DNA of 55,871 nt, taken from NCBI GenBank assembly GCA_013816505.1, contig JACDEG010000001.1:1-55871 (forward strand). Reading direction: 5' to 3'. Position numbers and translations under genes: made by a program. Positions 30,786 through 43,920 of this stretch are shown piece after piece. The stretch's first letter is position 1; every line of letters starts with the position of its first letter. The notes beneath the pieces were generated by a model. The model had not been told where the DNA came from. It was given only the letters and a program-made list of their open reading frames with translations, and ran no database searches. This DNA comes from Pyrinomonadaceae bacterium. Lineage in GTDB: Bacteria; Acidobacteriota; Blastocatellia; Pyrinomonadales; Pyrinomonadaceae.

Positions 30786-31520
30786 GTGACAACTTCCGCC
30801 TGCGCAGTAAGGCAGAAAGCGACACCACGTTCATCAACACGACGGAGCGACGTTTTGGAGAGCCACGAACAACAGCGGCGGCGAACGCATCAGATCATCA
30901 AGCTGCTCAGGCGAGAGTACCCCGGCGCGCGGTGTGCGCTGGTTCACGCGAACCCGCTTGAATTGCTGATTGCCACGATTCTTTCGGCGCAGTGTACAGA
31001 CGAGCGCGTGAACCTGGTAACGGCCGATCTGTTCAGAAAATATCGCGCGGCGGCGGACTATCTCGAAGTGCCGCAGACGGAGCTTGAGGCGGACATTCAT
31101 TCGACCGGATTCTTTCGCAACAAGGCGCGCGCCATTCAGGGAACGTGCCGCATCATCAGCGAGCAACACGACGGGCGCGTGCCTGATGACCTCGAACAAC
31201 TGCTGCAACTGCCGGGCGTCGCGCGCAAGACGGCGAACGTGGTGCTCGGCAACGCTTTCGGAATCGCGTCGGGCGTGGTCGTCGATACGCACGTTGCGCG
31301 ACTCGCCGGACGACTGGCATTGAGCGTACAGAAGCAGCCTGAGAAAATCGAACGTGACTTGATGACGCTCATGCCGAAAACGGACTGGATCGATTTTTCG
31401 CACCTGCTGATCGCGCATGGCCGCAAAGTTTGCAACGCACGTACCCCACTGTGTGCCGGGTGCGTGCTCGAACCGCGATGCCCCTCTTCGATATTGAAGA
31501 CGGGCGTGATGCCGAGTTGA
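30786..31520 (+). CDS. nth: Endonuclease III
   Basis: PLELLIATILSAQCTDERVN is present. The HhH is LPGVARKTANVVLGNAFG, followed by VDTHV. The C-terminal 4Fe-4S motif is CNARTPLCAGCVLEPRC. The start codon is uncertain (GTG 30786 or downstream). Confidence 0.9.
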   Translation: MTTSACAVRQKATPRSSTRRSDVLESHEQQRRRTHQIIKLLRREYPGARCALVHANPLELLIATILSAQCTDERVNLVTADLFRKYRAAADYLEVPQTELEADIHSTGFFRNKARAIQGTCRIISEQHDGRVPDDLEQLLQLPGVARKTANVVLGNAFGIASGVVVDTHVARLAGRLALSVQKQPEKIERDLMTLMPKTDWIDFSHLLIAHGRKVCNARTPLCAGCVLEPRCPSSILKTGVMPS

Positions 31521-31621
31521 ACACGCCGTTACTCGTCGACGATCTCGATTGAGGAATCGTTGATCGAGCGTTGGCATGCTTGCCGTGCGTCGTCGCCATT
31601 CGTCGTCCATCAGGTTGCCGG

Positions 31622-32649
31622 TTAAGTCGCGCCTGCGAAGCCGCGTGCTTCAGCGGCGAGCGCATCATCATTCAACCAGTCGCGCGTCAAGTCGCACCAC
31701 AGTGCGAGGCCGCGCCACGTTTTGAAGCGGGAATAGTAGCGCGCGATTTTGGCGTCCGAACAGACCCGTCCGCGGTAATGCGTGCGTGCGAACTTGGCGC
31801 GCACCCACGAATCGAGCGCCAGTCCGTCATAGCGTCCGAGTAACTTCAATAAATAGGACTTACGCAGTTCAACGAGGAATCAACAACTTACGGTAAGTCG
31901 CGGTTCCGGTAAGTCCTTTGTTTTCAACAAAGCCTTTTTCAAGTGCGTAAGTCCTATAAATTCTCCGCCGCATAATCGCCTGCGCCTTTGACCTGCTTGA
32001 TCTCGCGCTTGAGTTCGGCGGTCGAGAGCTTGCTCGTCAGCCACGCCTCAACATTGAGCGACCCGGAAGCGACGCGCACGGCCAACTCTTTCAGGTACGG
32101 CGCGCGGTAACCGGAACGCACCATGTCACGATAAAACTTTTCCGGCGCATCGGCCATCGCTTCCGGCGTCGGGAAGGCGCGTTGCCCGTCATTGGTTGCG
32201 CGTCCCAGGTTCGTCACCAGCGCCGTGACCATGATCTTCGTCAACGCCCACGAGCAGCTAGTGGTGCAGAGCGTTTTCACCAAATCTTCGTAGACCGTCG
32301 GCGAGCGGAGCAGACGGCCCGCGCCCGCCGCGCTGACCCACGCGAAAGAAGGATCGACGTCCATCATCCGATAAAACTCATTCAGGTCGTCGTCGAGTCG
32401 GAACATGTGGCGCACGTCGCGCGACACAACCTCGGCGGCACGCGCGCCGAGTCGTCGCGGTGCTTGAATTCGCAGCGCGTCCTCGGTCCCGTCGATGGCG
32501 ACGGTCAGGGCCTTGTCGCCGACGCCCAATACGCGCCGCAGCGTCCAACTTTGGTCGTCGAACGCGCACGGTGATAACTCACACCAACCGTGACTGAGCA
32601 CCGTCCGGCGGTAATTGAATGAGGGCGGAGTGGAAATCAGGATTTCCAT
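31622..32649 (-). pseudogene. HhH-GPD DNA glycosylase (AlkA / 3-methyladenine glycosylase II-like) interrupted by a MITE
   Basis: ORF 31954..32649 ends ...VKGAGDYAAENL*, and ORF 31622..31849 starts (L)KLLGRYDGLALDSWVR. Joined, they form a canonical HhH-GPD motif (G.G.y.Ae..L..lgr.D.l..D). The stop codon TAG is supplied by the inserted element. Confidence 0.8.
31854..31956. mobile_element. 103-bp MITE with perfect 13-bp terminal inverted repeats and TAAA target-site duplication
   Basis: The TIRs are taggacttacgca (31854-31866) and tgcgtaagtccta (31944-31956). taaa flanks both sides (31850-31853 and 31957-31960). Five internal copies of the GTAAGT/ACTTAC motif are present. The element encodes no ORF. 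Removing the element plus one TAAA (107 bp) restores the host reading frame. Confidence 0.8.
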
Positions 32650-32755
32650 CGGCGGCCATCAAAAGCATGATGTGTGAAAGGTGACGCGCCGAACGAAACG
32701 GGGCGCGCGACAAGATGTTTCATTTAGAGCGGTCTCAGTATAAAAATTATGCGAC

Positions 32756-35506
32756 TTAAAACCTGATGCGGTAACGCGCGGTGATGCTTCGTCCGGGGCC
32801 GTCGATGCCCCACCCCGGATTGCGGTGGCTCTTGTCCGCGATGTTCTCGAAGTATAAATCGAGTTCGTTGCTTTCGTTGAAACGAAAGCCGCCGCGCAGG
32901 CTGATTAGCCCGTAGCCTGGTATGGCGGTGAAGAGTGGCGCGGAGTTCGCGGAACCGAGCACGCGAGTCTGCACTTGCGCTAGTGTTTCGCCCGTCGGGA
33001 TCAGGATGTCATCGGACGTGTCCTGGCGACCGTCGGGACCGTTACCGATGAGTCCGCGCACACGCGCGCCGCGCCGAAAAAAGTTTTGAATGTTAGTGCG
33101 CGAGCGCGTCGCGCCGGTGCGCCGATCAGACAGGTCGAGCGTCGAGAGACGGTCTTGCCTGCCGGCCAATGTCGAATAAGCTTCGACGAAGTAGCGAACG
33201 TTGGCGGGTTGGTAACGCAGGCGCAGGAATCCGAGCGGCGGCGGGACGCCCGCGCCGCCGAGGTTAGGCGGATCGTTCGTCTCTTTGTCTGCGGCGCGAA
33301 CATAGCTGAAATTGCCGCCGAAGTTCAGCGACTCGGTCAGGCGCAGATCGAGTGTGTATTCAAGACCACGCAAGCGGGTGGCATTGAAATTCGCCTGCAC
33401 CAGCACCGGGCTGGTTGAGAGCGGCACGAAGACCGCGCCGTTCGCGCTCTGACGCTCGACGCGCTGACTGCCGAGCACCAGACCCACCGCGCCGGGCGGC
33501 AGGATCAGCGTCTGTCGAACAATGGCGTTGTTGTAGTCAATCAGGTAGCCGGTCAGATCGGTGCGGACGCGACCCTTGCGGAGACGGAAGCTGAGGTCGA
33601 AGTTATTGGTGGTCTCCGACGAAAGCGGCGAGACGGGTATGCCGGTGGAGACGGCTGCGTCGTCGGCGGTCGAACCGACAATCGCACCTAAGTTCGCGAG
33701 GTCCGCCGTCGCGACCTGGAAGCCGACGCCGACCAGACCGAGCGAGCCGAGGCTGGTGATGTTCGGCGCCCGGAAGCCGCGACTGTAATTGAAGGTGATG
33801 TTCATCTCGTCAGCAATTGTCCCGACCACGCCGATGCGCCCTGAGAAATCGTCGACGCGCAGGCTGTCGTCGGGGAACAGGGGCCGACCGTCGACGAGTG
33901 GGCTGTCGGCGGCGTGTGCACGGTACGAAGCGACGTTGTAGCGCAACGCCCCGCTCAAACGCAGGCGTTCCGGCACGACGTCGTAAGAGTCTTGCACGAA
34001 CAAGCCAGCGAGGATGTAGCGCGCCCCGTTCGGCACGCGCGGGCGCACGAGTGTGACCGCGCTCGTCGCCGGATCGGTCGAAAAAGACGGCGCGTCCACA
34101 CTGTCGCGGTAGACATCTCCGCCGATGAGAAGGGTGTTGTCTTTGGTGATCTGCTTGTCGAGGTAGAAGTTGAAGCCGAAGGTGCTGGTCCGTTCACGGT
34201 CGTTCGTGATCGAAGCGAGCGGGTTGCCCTGCCCGCCTTGATTGATGCGTTCTTCACGCTGGCTGTTGAAGGAAAAGGTTGCCGAGAGGTTGTCGAAGAA
34301 GCCGACACGCTGCTTCGCGTAGCGCGCGTAGAAGAAGTCGAGCATCAGATTGCGCAGGTCGGCGACGAGGTTGCCGTCGCCGCCGAGGAGTTGGTCGTAA
34401 CGTTTGCCCCCATCCTGCTGGCTGCGTTGGTAGCGAAAGTTGAGTTGCTGATCGTCACGCGGCGCGTAGGTTAAGTGGAGCGTGCCGCCGTACTGCGTAA
34501 ACGCCGTGTCGTCCAAACGCTCTCCGAAGACGTTCGAGGGGAGTCCGAGAAAGCGCGTGACCGCCGCGTGGCCGTCGACGCCGCCGCCAGGGCGGAGCGT
34601 GTTGACGCGGCGGCTGTTGATGTTGGCGAGTAGCCCAAAGCGCTTCGTGCCGTAGGTCAGAAGCGTGTTGCCGCCGAACGAAAGATCGGCGATGGTGAAA
34701 AAAGAATTGATTTCGCCGTGCAGTTCCGGCTTGTCGAAGCCAATCTCCGGGGTGCGTGAGATGAGCTGGATCGTGCCGCCGAGCGAGTCAGAGCCGTACT
34801 GCGCGCTGTTGGTGCCGCGCACGATTTCGACCGAGCGCAGCGAACTCGGTTCGTTGAGATTGAAGAACGTGTTGATGCCGCCGCGCTGCGTTGACTGTGT
34901 GGAGCGCACGCCGTCAACGTATACGCCGACCTCCGTCAGCCCCCGCACCACGACCGCGCCGATGGTCGGGCTGGTGCGTTGGAGCGCGACGCCCACTTCT
35001 TCGTCGGCGACCTGAGCGAGCACGGCCGTTGTGCGCGAGATGATCGAGTCTTCTGAGATGACGTTGACTTGTTGGGCGACGCGGTCGGTGCTCTCGGTTT
35101 GGCCCGTCTCGGCCGTGACCGTCACTTGTTCGGCAAGCGAGCTGACTTCCAAAACCAGGGACACATTCGCCGCAGCGCCGCCCGCCGTCACCAGCGTGGC
35201 CACACTTTGATCGTTAAAGCCAGAGTGCGTGACACTGACTTCGTAAGTGCCCGGCGACACATTGTCAAAACTGAAGCGGCCGGTCGCGTCCGATTCAGTT
35301 CGGCGCGAAACTAATTGTTGCGTGTTGACGAGCGACACTTTGGCCTTCTCGACGCGGGCGCCCGACGCATCATAGAGCGTCCCTTCGACCGCGCCGCGCG
35401 CGCCCCCTTGAGCGTTCACCGGGACGGCGAAAATCAGCAATATCAAAAACGTCATCAGCGATTTAATCGAAGGTGTCAGTCTCTGTGGAAGTATTGGGTG
35501 ATTCAT
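32756..35506 (-). CDS. TonB-dependent receptor with N-terminal carboxypeptidase-regulatory-like domain
   Basis: A signal peptide is present. GAVEGTLYDASGARVEKAKVSLVN...TGRFSFDNVSPGTYEVSV marks the CarboxypepD_reg domain. Plug-domain segments are VNVISEDSI, VVRGL and GTIQLISR. The C-terminus is ...ITARYRIRF. Confidence 0.9.
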   Translation of the reverse strand: MNHPILPQRLTPSIKSLMTFLILLIFAVPVNAQGGARGAVEGTLYDASGARVEKAKVSLVNTQQLVSRRTESDATGRFSFDNVSPGTYEVSVTHSGFNDQSVATLVTAGGAAANVSLVLEVSSLAEQVTVTAETGQTESTDRVAQQVNVISEDSIISRTTAVLAQVADEEVGVALQRTSPTIGAVVVRGLTEVGVYVDGVRSTQSTQRGGINTFFNLNEPSSLRSVEIVRGTNSAQYGSDSLGGTIQLISRTPEIGFDKPELHGEINSFFTIADLSFGGNTLLTYGTKRFGLLANINSRRVNTLRPGGGVDGHAAVTRFLGLPSNVFGERLDDTAFTQYGGTLHLTYAPRDDQQLNFRYQRSQQDGGKRYDQLLGGDGNLVADLRNLMLDFFYARYAKQRVGFFDNLSATFSFNSQREERINQGGQGNPLASITNDRERTSTFGFNFYLDKQITKDNTLLIGGDVYRDSVDAPSFSTDPATSAVTLVRPRVPNGARYILAGLFVQDSYDVVPERLRLSGALRYNVASYRAHAADSPLVDGRPLFPDDSLRVDDFSGRIGVVGTIADEMNITFNYSRGFRAPNITSLGSLGLVGVGFQVATADLANLGAIVGSTADDAAVSTGIPVSPLSSETTNNFDLSFRLRKGRVRTDLTGYLIDYNNAIVRQTLILPPGAVGLVLGSQRVERQSANGAVFVPLSTSPVLVQANFNATRLRGLEYTLDLRLTESLNFGGNFSYVRAADKETNDPPNLGGAGVPPPLGFLRLRYQPANVRYFVEAYSTLAGRQDRLSTLDLSDRRTGATRSRTNIQNFFRRGARVRGLIGNGPDGRQDTSDDILIPTGETLAQVQTRVLGSANSAPLFTAIPGYGLISLRGGFRFNESNELDLYFENIADKSHRNPGWGIDGPGRSITARYRIRF

Positions 35507-35623: not shown

Positions 35624-35701
35624 TGGGGCGATAGGAGGGTCTTGAACCCTCGACCTCCGGTGCCACAGACCGGCGCTCTAACCAACTGAGCTACTATCGC
35701 C
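35624..35701 (-). tRNA. tRNA-His (anticodon GTG) with encoded G-1 and CCA
   Basis: The hand-folded reverse complement reads G-GCGATAG TA GCTC AGTTGGTTA GAGC G CCGGT CTGTGGC ACCGG AGGTC GAGGG TTCAAGA CCCTC CTATCGC C CCA. The extra 5' G opposite C73 is diagnostic for tRNA-His. Confidence 0.9.
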
Positions 35702-35861: not shown

Positions 35862-35937
35862 TGGTGCCCCCGGCTGGACTCGAACCAGCGGCCCTCTGCT
35901 TAGAAGGCAGATGCTCTATCCGCTGAGCTACGGGGGC
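35862..35937 (-). tRNA. tRNA-Arg (anticodon TCT), CCA encoded
   Basis: The hand fold reads GCCCCCG TA GCTC AGCGGATA GAGC A TCTGC CTTCTAA GCAGA GGGCC GCTGG TTCGAGT CCAGC CGGGGGC A CCA. Confidence 0.9.
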
Positions 35938-39355: not shown

Positions 39356-39429
<74 letters not shown>

Positions 39430-43687: not shown

Positions 43688-43826
43688 TGCCGCGTCGATC
43701 AGTACTAACCGGTTGTTAGTATTTACGAGCAGGGATGCATACAAGAGGGCCACGACCGAGATTTTCGAGCAGCCGGCAGAACCTGATGAATCGAAGTCTC
43801 GTCATCGCATCTATTGAAACTCAACG

Positions 43827-43920
43827 ATAAAGGCACACCTCGTGCGAGCGGGGGTCGCAAAGCCTAAGGGGGTCGCACCGAACGAAGCTCGGTTTCGACT
43901 CAGCCAGGTTGCCGAAGGAG
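43827..43920 (+). promoter_or_regulatory. Candidate c-di-GMP-I (GEMM-I) riboswitch aptamer
   Basis: AUAAAGGCACACC-UCGU-GCGA-GCGG-GGGUCGCAAAGCC-[P2: GGGUCG CA CCGA ACGAAGC UCGG UUU CGACUC]-AGCCAGGUUGCCGAAGG. This is block-wise collinear with the remembered Vc2 aptamer: GGGCAAACC-stem-GNRA-stem-GGGACGCAAAGCC-P2-AGCGGGGUUACCGAUGG. Confidence 0.6.

What the first reader, a model, noticed from the sequence alone, without database searches (positions are those of the whole stretch)
31850..31960. 103-bp MITE with TAAA duplication inserted into the helix-hairpin-helix motif of an AlkA-like glycosylase gene
Perfect 13-bp terminal inverted repeats (taggacttacgca / tgcgtaagtccta) are flanked by taaa on both sides. 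The element carries five copies of GTAAGT/ACTTAC, including the palindrome acttacggtaagt. It also carries an internal hairpin plus T-run (ctttgtt-ttc-aacaaag-cctttttc). Deleting the element and one TAAA (107 bp) fuses the two minus-strand ORFs in frame. The result is ...VKGAGDYAAENLLKLLGRYDGLALDSWVR, a textbook HhH-GPD motif. The premature TAG comes from the TIR itself. This is a clean, apparently recent insertional inactivation of a DNA repair gene next to nth. A TA duplication with 11-bp TIRs (101 bp removed) also keeps the frame, so the element superfamily is unresolved.
Basis: seen in the sequence. Interest (0 to 1): 0.7.

Follow-up and report, generated by a model that had tools for sequence, protein, structure and literature searches.

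The report
ISAba11-type MITE disrupting a DNA glycosylase gene
A 103-bp non-coding mobile element, whose ends match a known insertion-sequence group (IS701 family, ISAba11/ISPlag1 group), has jumped into and broken a DNA-repair glycosylase gene of an uncultured acidobacterium; it is a clean example of an ordinary process.

Summary
Window 31854-31956 is a 103-bp, 42% GC element with perfect 13-bp terminal inverted repeats (TIRs), TAGGACTTACGCA/TGCGTAAGTCCTA, and TAAA on both sides. It splits a minus-strand HhH-GPD glycosylase gene. Syntenic orthologs (96% and 93% aa identity) are intact and carry the exact empty site, so 107 bp were inserted.

The unresolved superfamily is now resolved. The 13-bp ends are identical to those of ISAba11 (Acinetobacter) and of related IS701-family elements in Moraxella, Anabaena, Chondrinema and a Pyrinomonadaceae MAG; ISPlag1 (Planktothrix) differs only in its outermost base (C...G). 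All of these with readable flanks except ISPlag1 have 5-bp target duplications.

Three more identical 103-bp copies lie at other loci of one soil metagenome, with duplications ATGGT, AGAGT and ATTG. A fourth contig shares the left 88 bp and then runs into an RBS plus ATG, so it is a candidate autonomous parent. The TA/IS630 alternative is rejected.

This is a recently active MITE, presumably mobilised in trans by an ISAba11/ISPlag1-group DDE transposase, and it has inactivated the gene. It is a new member of a known kind, of modest interest. In passing, small elements with these same ends but unrelated cores turned up in more than 120 genome stretches across many phyla.

The parts
31854..31956 (+). 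103-bp MITE. Orientation is given as that of the parent-like element L129, whose putative transposase start lies downstream of this left end.
   Evidence: The element is absent from orthologs. Identical copies occur in L130, L131 and L132. GC is 0.42.
31854..31866 (+). Left terminal inverted repeat, TAGGACTTACGCA.
   Evidence: It is identical to the ends of ISAba11 (L137), the Moraxella IS (L128), the Anabaena IS (L138), the Chondrinema IS (L134) and the Pyrinomonadaceae IS (L139).
31944..31956 (+). Right terminal inverted repeat, TGCGTAAGTCCTA. Its last three bases, read on the minus strand, are the premature TAG stop of the glycosylase 5' fragment.
31850..31853 (.). Left copy of the target-site duplication, TAAA.
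   Evidence: The ortholog empty site has a single TAAA.
31957..31960 (.). Right copy of the target-site duplication, TAAA.
31886..31918 (.). Internal copies of the TIR core: the palindrome ACTTACGGTAAGT and CGGTAAGTCCT, a 9-bp near-copy of the right end.
   Evidence: They are also present in the parent-like L129 but absent from the other family IS examined. Their function is unknown; extra transposase-binding sites is an inference.
31916..31940 (+). A+T-rich hairpin CTTTGTT/AACAAAG followed by CCTTTTTC.
   Evidence: In L129 it lies just upstream of the RBS and ATG. The consensus terminator scan does not call it.
31957..32649 (-). 5' fragment of the glycosylase gene (231 codons). It contains the HhH hairpin but lacks the catalytic Asp.
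31622..31849 (-). 3' fragment of the glycosylase gene (75 codons plus the stop codon). It encodes KLLGRYDGLALDSW..., which includes the conserved Asp.
30786..31520 (+). Neighbouring intact nth (endonuclease III-type HhH-GPD protein), convergent with the disrupted gene. This is context, not part of the element.
   Evidence: PF00730 at 80 bits, PF00633. Synteny in L002 and L003.

Best explanation
The 103-bp sequence is a non-autonomous deletion derivative (MITE) of an insertion sequence of the IS701 family, ISAba11/ISPlag1 group. It keeps the left ~88 bp and the right ~15 bp of its parent, including the 13-bp ends that the group's DDE transposase is presumed to recognise. A transposase supplied in trans, by a full-length element elsewhere in the genome or community, inserted it into an A+T-rich patch (AATTTATTG) of the glycosylase coding sequence by staggered cleavage. 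This duplicated 4 bp, or 5 bp if one terminal base is shared. The insertion adds 107 bp, so it shifts the frame and brings in a TAG from the TIR. The protein is truncated after the HhH hairpin and loses the catalytic Asp, which inactivates the gene.

Shown: the insertion, the duplication, the empty site, the identity of the ends with autonomous IS, the multiple identical copies, and the gene disruption.

Inferred: trans-mobilisation by this transposase group, the transposition chemistry, and loss of enzyme activity.
For: 1. Exact empty site in syntenic orthologs of 96% and 93% aa identity: a 107-bp difference and nothing else.
2. The 13-bp ends are identical to those of ISAba11 (1101 bp, duplication CATAT), a Moraxella osloensis IS (ATAAT), an Anabaena cylindrica IS (TCATT), a Chondrinema IS and A. 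baumannii pAba79f. ISPlag1 differs only in the outermost base. Published descriptions agree: ISPlag1 TIR CAGGACTTACGCA..., IS701 group (PMC2464740); ISAba11 with 13-bp IRs, related to IS701 (PMC7519801).
3. The ISPlag1 transposase scores 408 bits on NCBIfam NF049921, IS701 family transposase.
4. An intact 1091-bp IS with the same 13-bp ends and a TGATG duplication, encoding a 339-aa transposase, sits in a Pyrinomonadaceae MAG. This is the family that source annotations give for several of the glycosylase homologs (60-70% aa identity).
5. Three further 100%-identical 103-bp copies lie at unrelated loci in metagenome Ga0136617, with their own duplications ATGGT, AGAGT and ATTG.
6. L129 shares the left 88 bp (1 mismatch) and then continues into GAGAGGAGG...ATG at the contig end, as expected of the autonomous parent.
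7. Among 126 small elements with these ends from more than 120 genome stretches, 85 have an exact 5-bp A+T-rich duplication outside 13-bp Y...R ends.
8. The restored ORF has no other lesion, and the copies are identical, so the event is recent.
Against: No transposase of this family lies in the 55.9-kb window, and the rest of the source genome could not be searched, so a partner in the same cell is not shown.

The parent candidate L129 shows only 11 codons, and no database protein with that N-terminus was found.

The duplication here reads as 4 bp rather than the family-typical 5 bp. One sister copy (L131, ATTG) also has 4 bp, and 6 of 126 elements do.

The host of the sister copies is not established; those contigs have 49-56% GC against 59.5% for the window.
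Confidence: 0.9

Rival explanations
1. A full-length IS inserted into the glycosylase gene and was later reduced in place to 103 bp by internal deletion. On this view the 103-bp unit itself never transposed.
For: MITEs arise by such deletions. L129 shows that a longer element sharing the left 88 bp exists.
Against: The same 103-bp sequence, with the same deletion junction, occurs at three other loci, each with its own target duplication. The deleted form is therefore the unit that moves.
Confidence: 0.04
2. It is an IS630/Tc1-mariner-type MITE with a TA duplication and 11-bp TIRs.
For: TA lies next to both ends, and removing 101 bp also keeps the frame.
Against: That excision predicts AAENLYLLKLL, whereas all aligned homologs have NLLKLL/NLFKLL with no extra residues, and the ortholog DNA shows a 107-bp difference. 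The sister copies have ATGGT and AGAGT duplications, not TA. The ends match IS701-family elements.
Confidence: 0.01
3. It is an assembly artefact: a repeat wrongly placed inside the gene by the metagenome assembler.
For: The element is a dispersed repeat. A second assembly (L126) is chimeric or recombinant exactly at this element: one flank is the glycosylase gene and the other is the flank of the L131 copy.
Against: In the window both flanks are collinear with the ortholog gene and the target bases are duplicated, which a misjoin would not produce. L126 independently shows the element abutting the same glycosylase position.
Confidence: 0.02
4. The element is removed or bypassed at the RNA or protein level (a small self-splicing or recoding element), so the gene still works.
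For: The transcript would fold very stably (-36.1 kcal/mol, z = -5.2), and it contains GTAAGT motifs.
Against: There is no Rfam match. At 103 nt it is far below the size of group I or II introns. The stable fold follows from the TIRs. The same element sits in intergenic DNA and over a stop codon elsewhere. 107 nt is not a multiple of three, and there is an in-frame TAG.
Confidence: 0.01

Closest known systems
ISAba11 (Acinetobacter baumannii; IS701 family, ISAba11 group)
   Same: The 13-bp terminal inverted repeats TAGGACTTACGCA/TGCGTAAGTCCTA are identical. It inserts in A+T-rich sites, with a 5-bp duplication in the copy examined (L137, CATAT). It is known to be active and to inactivate genes such as lpxA, lpxC and adeN (PMC9771954; PMC7519801).
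   Different: ISAba11 is 1101 bp and encodes its own transposase, whereas the window element is 103 bp with no ORF. The sequence inside the 13-bp ends is unrelated. The hosts are in different phyla.
ISPlag1 (Planktothrix agardhii) and its 197-bp remnants at the deleted mcy locus (Christiansen et al. 2008, PMC2464740)
   Same: The terminal sequence is the same (CAGGACTTACGCA...). It has an IS701-group transposase (NF049921, 408 bits). Short transposase-less derivatives that keep the TIRs are documented.
   Different: The ISPlag1 TIR extends to 29 bp with a different inner part. Its outermost base pair is C...G rather than T...A. The Planktothrix remnants are associated with a large deletion rather than a simple insertion.
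The IS in a Pyrinomonadaceae MAG (L139 1975-3065; transposase P0240)
   Same: It has the same 13-bp ends and a 5-bp duplication (TGATG). It comes from the bacterial family that source annotations give for several of the glycosylase homologs. It is a plausible type of trans-acting partner.
   Different: Its subterminal sequence differs from that of the MITE, so it is not the direct parent. L129 is the better parent candidate.
Classical bacterial MITEs (Correia, RUP, Nezha, MaeMITE; reviewed in PMC3184786)
   Same: Size is about 100-200 bp. They have TIRs matching a resident IS, target duplications, empty and filled sites in relatives, and a strong predicted hairpin.
   Different: They come from different IS families and have different duplication lengths. 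Most described copies are intergenic, whereas this one interrupts a coding sequence.

Membership tests
MITE (non-autonomous DNA transposon derivative) | Terminal inverted repeats | tested here: met
   A perfect 13-bp TIR, and the only two matches in the window.
MITE (non-autonomous DNA transposon derivative) | Target-site duplication, and an empty site in relatives | tested here: met
   TAAA is duplicated. Five ortholog loci have a single copy and lack the 103 bp.
MITE (non-autonomous DNA transposon derivative) | Small size with no transposase gene | tested here: met
   The element is 103 bp. No ORF of at least 40 aa lies wholly inside it, and there is no tblastn match to the transposases.
MITE (non-autonomous DNA transposon derivative) | Several near-identical copies at different loci | tested here: met
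   L130, L131 and L132 are 100% identical over 103 bp and have different flanks. Copy number in the source genome itself could not be tested.
MITE (non-autonomous DNA transposon derivative) | A cognate autonomous element with the same ends | tested here: met
   ISAba11, the Moraxella, Anabaena, Chondrinema and Pyrinomonadaceae IS, and ISPlag1. L129 is a parent-like element.
IS701 family, ISAba11/ISPlag1 group (as source and mobiliser) | Conserved terminal sequence YAGGACTTACGCA | tested here: met
   All 13 of 13 bases match ISAba11 and four other family IS.
IS701 family, ISAba11/ISPlag1 group (as source and mobiliser) | 5-bp target duplication | tested here: inconclusive
   The window copy reads as 4 bp (TAAA), or as 5 bp only if one terminal base is counted as target. 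Sister copies give 5, 5 and 4 bp. Across the wider set, 85 of 126 have an exact 5 bp and 6 of 126 have 4 bp. One 6-bp case is published for ISAba11.
IS701 family, ISAba11/ISPlag1 group (as source and mobiliser) | A DDE transposase of the family present in the same cell and acting on these ends | not testable with these tools
   There is none in the window, and the whole source genome is not available. The family does occur in Pyrinomonadaceae.
IS630/Tc1-mariner MITE | TA target duplication | tested here: not met
   The empty site requires removal of 107 bp, not 101 bp. The sister duplications are ATGGT and AGAGT.
HhH-GPD DNA glycosylase (the disrupted gene) | A helix-hairpin-helix, a Gly/Pro-rich loop and a conserved catalytic Asp | tested here: met
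   The restored protein aligns across the junction with C. acetobutylicum Ogg (3i0w, E 2.8e-8), with the Asp of LDSW opposite that of VDTW. G222, G224 and D244 are invariant in homologs. The Pfam HhH-GPD score of 21.4 bits is below the 26.2 cut-off, although many homologs carry PF00730.
HhH-GPD DNA glycosylase (the disrupted gene) | Assignment to the Ogg (bifunctional, catalytic Lys) or AlkA (monofunctional) subfamily | tested here: inconclusive
   The scores on TIGR00588 ogg (42.5 bits against a 397.85 cut-off) and on AlkA NF007641 (28.6 against 229) are both far below threshold. The position of the Ogg catalytic Lys (from memory; Q in the mutant structure 3i0w) is Tyr here (GAGDYAAEN), which suggests a monofunctional enzyme. 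That is an inference.

The most novel reading that the evidence does not exclude
The insertion might be a population-level, reversible mutator switch. An active MITE would sit in a base-excision-repair gene and could be lost again, either by transposase-mediated excision or by recombination between the duplicated target bases. Lineages of this acidobacterium would then alternate between repair-deficient and repair-proficient states.

A second, wider reading concerns the ends themselves. The same 12-13 bp ends flank unrelated ~90-120 bp cores in Cyanobacteria, Poribacteria, Burkholderiales, Chloroflexota, a CPR bacterium and a Methanosarcina. That could reflect repeated de novo MITE birth on an unusually constrained end sequence, shared by transposases that are only ~25-28% identical.
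Probability: 0.06. Interest if true: 0.55.

Novelty: new member of a known kind. Interest (0 to 1): 0.25.

Why it matters
This is a well-documented natural case of a MITE knocking out a base-excision-repair gene in an uncultured soil acidobacterium. The empty site, sister copies and candidate partner elements are all in hand.

It assigns a previously unplaced small repeat to the ISAba11/ISPlag1 group of the IS701 family. That helps annotation: the two gene halves should be called one pseudogene and the 103 bp a mobile element.

Loss of the glycosylase could raise the mutation rate, but this was not tested. The broader by-product may be worth a dedicated survey: small elements with these ends and unrelated cores are abundant across many phyla.

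Tried and rejected
1. Rfam on the element and its flanks (E up to 10) and on the whole window: nothing at the element. An RNA-family explanation was dropped.
2. Full-length IS among the 120 genome loci, sought as TIR pairs 0.4-4 kb apart and by the transposase motif. Only chance pairs around ordinary genes turned up.
3. tblastn of the ISPlag1 and Moraxella transposases against the window and all loci: no hit in the window.
4. Searching for the L129 parent's protein by its 11-residue N-terminus. The tool does not allow E above 10. None of the 120 best family members or of the 150 best 50%-cluster representatives starts with MQKKAQTNLVH.
5. The L126 foreign flank was looked for in the window and is absent. 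It matches the L131 flank instead.
6. The similarity of the left target flank (GTAACTTCAATAAAT) to the element's right end (GTAAGTCCTATAAAT, 80%) was considered as a target preference. The sister copies show no such similarity, so it is treated as coincidence.
7. The Rieck et al. 2012 paper on ISAba11 is not held. Statements about its HHEK motif and 5-bp repeats rest on my memory and on citing papers.
8. The consensus scan found no promoter or terminator in 31400-32800.

Full report
**Observation.**

The sequence at 31850-31960 is as described.
- TAGGACTTACGCA (31854-31866) and its exact reverse complement (31944-31956) are the only matches to this 13-mer in the 55,871-bp window, even with two mismatches allowed.
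- TAAA flanks both ends.
- GC falls to 0.42 over the element, against about 0.60 on either side.
- Five of the window's 14 GTAAGT/ACTTAC hexamers lie in these 103 bp.
- The A+T-rich hairpin CTTTGTT-TTC-AACAAAG followed by CCTTTTTC is present at 31916-31940. The consensus terminator scan does not call it.
- As RNA the element folds at -36.1 kcal/mol (z = -5.2), which is what TIRs produce.

**The disrupted gene.**

- Two minus-strand ORFs abut the element. One is 231 aa (31954-32649) and ends ...AAENL with a TAG supplied by the TIR. The other is 75 aa (31622-31849) and starts at a TTG, reading KLLGRYDGLALDSW.
- Removing the element and one TAAA (107 bp) gives a 306-aa ORF.
- This ORF aligns across the junction with Clostridium acetobutylicum Ogg (3i0w, E 2.8e-8), with LDSW opposite VDTW.
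- It also gives sub-threshold matches to Pfam HhH-GPD, TIGR00588 (ogg) and the AlkA model.
- 5662 database proteins match at E<=1e-10. In the alignment of ten of them, NLLKLLGRYDGLALDSW is contiguous and almost invariant.
- The position of the Ogg catalytic lysine, as I recall it, is Tyr here. That suggests a monofunctional, AlkA/Mag-like enzyme, but this is an inference.
- The neighbour at 30786-31520 is an endonuclease III-type protein.

**Empty site.**

P0001 (96% identity) and P0002 (93%) are intact 307-aa proteins. They sit in the same gene neighbourhood: TonB-dependent receptor, glycosylase, nth, CoxS-like Fer2 protein. Their DNA reads GGATAATTTATTGAAGTTACTC where the window has GGAGAATTTA[103 bp]TTTATTGAAGTTACTC. 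The difference is therefore exactly the element plus one copy of the 4 bp.

**What the element is.**

- These stretches hold 126 small elements. They share only the ends, and their cores are unrelated between lineages.
- 85 of the 126 have an exact 5-bp, A+T-rich duplication outside a 13th base. That base is always a pyrimidine on the left and a purine on the right.
- A full-text search for the end sequence found Christiansen et al. 2008. There ISPlag1 of Planktothrix is described as 1306 bp, with a 337-aa transposase of the IS701 group and the TIR CAGGACTTACGCAAGCACGCTATATATAG.
- Using the published transposase motif, I recovered ISPlag1 on a P. agardhii plasmid. PGAP annotates it as 'IS701-like element ISPlag1 family transposase', and it scores 408 bits on NF049921.

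Relatives recovered the same way are listed below.

| Element | Locus | Ends | Duplication |
|---|---|---|---|
| Moraxella osloensis IS | L128 | TAGGACTTACGCA...TGCGTAAGTCCTA | ATAAT |
| ISAba11, 1101 bp | L137 | same 13 bp | CATAT |
| Anabaena cylindrica IS | L138 | same 13 bp | TCATT |
| Chondrinema (Bacteroidota) IS | L134 | same 13 bp | not readable |
| A. baumannii pAba79f IS | L133 | same 13 bp | not readable |

The transposases of the ISAba11 and ISPlag1 subgroups are only about 25-28% identical, yet the 13 terminal bases are the same. ISAba11 is an experimentally active IS that inactivates genes (PMC9771954). It is described as having 13-bp inverted repeats and being related to IS701 (PMC7519801).

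**Evidence of mobility in the relevant lineage.**

- A metagenome scan for the element's core found four contigs in one JGI sample, Ga0136617.
- Three of them carry copies 100% identical over all 103 bp at unrelated sites, with duplications ATGGT, AGAGT and ATTG.
- Two of these copies (L130, L132) appear intergenic. The third (L131) replaces a stop codon and extends an ORF by 14 residues.
- The fourth contig, L129, shares the left 88 bp (one mismatch). It then continues as GGTAGTGGCTCAATCGGGTGAGAGGAGGCTAAGATTGTAGCG-ATG-CAA-AAA-AAG..., reaching the contig end after 11 codons. This is what the autonomous parent should look like, but it is not proven.
- The transposase family is very large. At least 7994 90%-identity clusters have E<=1e-20, and 342 50%-identity clusters have E<=1e-30.
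- One member, P0240, comes from a Pyrinomonadaceae MAG. Its 1091-bp IS has the same 13-bp ends and a TGATG duplication.
- Source annotations of the glycosylase homologs place the lineage in Acidobacteriota, and several of them in Pyrinomonadaceae or Blastocatellia.

**Second assembly.**

L126, a 3.4-kb contig of GCA_020064125.1, is 98.3% identical to the window. All but one of the 55 differences lie in the TonB-receptor gene and none in the glycosylase fragment. It carries the element at the same glycosylase position, with one mismatch in a TIR. Beyond the element, however, it continues with the flank of the L131 copy. This is either an assembly chimera across the repeat or a real recombinant. 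Either way, the two insertion sites co-occur in that sample, and the glycosylase junction is seen independently.

**Mechanism and limits.**

The best reading is a deletion-derived MITE mobilised in trans by an ISAba11/ISPlag1-group DDE transposase. It landed in an A+T-rich patch of a GC-rich gene and inactivated it by frameshift plus a TIR-borne stop codon. The following points are not shown:
- a transposase in the same genome (there is none in the window);
- the transposition chemistry;
- loss of enzyme activity;
- any phenotype.

The duplication reads as 4 bp here, against the family's usual 5 bp. One base could belong either to the element or to the target, so this point stays open.

**Novelty.**

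This is an ordinary kind of event, now assigned to a known IS group: a new member of a known kind. I found no paper in the held library describing MITEs of this group as such. The Planktothrix '197-bp remnants' are the nearest published thing.

Noticed in passing
L006-L125 (genome-contig loci): More than 120 genome stretches carry 88-151-bp elements that share only the ends YAGGACTTACGCA...TGCGTAAGTCCTR, with unrelated cores. Most are cyanobacterial (Nostoc, Okeania, Trichodesmium IMS101, Moorena, Microcoleus). Others come from Poribacteria, Undibacterium and other Burkholderiales, Anaerolineae, Desulfobacteraceae, Ca. Moduliflexus, a Ca. Daviesbacteria (CPR) MAG and Methanosarcina sp. Z-7115. 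85 of the 126 elements have 5-bp A+T-rich duplications. The outermost base varies (C or T on the left, A or G on the right) independently at the two ends.
   Followed up: partly
L126 3306-3423 against L131: A second assembly's contig joins the glycosylase-side flank of the MITE to the flank of a different MITE copy (the L131 site). It is either an assembly chimera across the repeat or a real recombination between two copies.
   Followed up: partly
window about 34096-35143 (TonB-dependent receptor gene, minus strand): 51 of the 55 differences between the window and L126 (54 of them in this gene) cluster here, while the adjacent ~1 kb, including the glycosylase fragment, is identical. The split is 35 synonymous to 17 non-synonymous codon changes. 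This suggests a recombination tract or a fast-evolving receptor segment.
   Followed up: no
L131 3094-3196: The sister MITE copy is inserted exactly over the stop codon (TAT TAT TGA) of a 194-codon (stop-to-stop) ORF of unknown function. The ORF then reads into the element and gains 14 residues (CRTYAVQRGINNLR).
   Followed up: no
window 43822-43916 (+): A c-di-GMP-I riboswitch aptamer matches above the Rfam gathering score (45.5 bits, E 9.6e-6).
   Followed up: no
window 35624-35700, 35862-35937, 39356-39429 (-): tRNA-His(GTG), tRNA-Arg(TCT) and tRNA-Pro(TGG) genes.
   Followed up: no
window 31886-31918: Three internal copies of the TIR core (ACTTAC/GTAAGT) include a 9-bp near-copy of the right end, GTAAGTCCT. 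They occur only in this MITE and in the L129 parent-like element, not in the seven other family IS examined. They may be extra transposase-binding sites or a relic of a nested end.
   Followed up: partly
homolog annotations: Several orthologs of this HhH-GPD glycosylase are named 'Fe-S cluster assembly protein HesB' in NCBI MAG annotations. This looks like a propagated misannotation.
   Followed up: no
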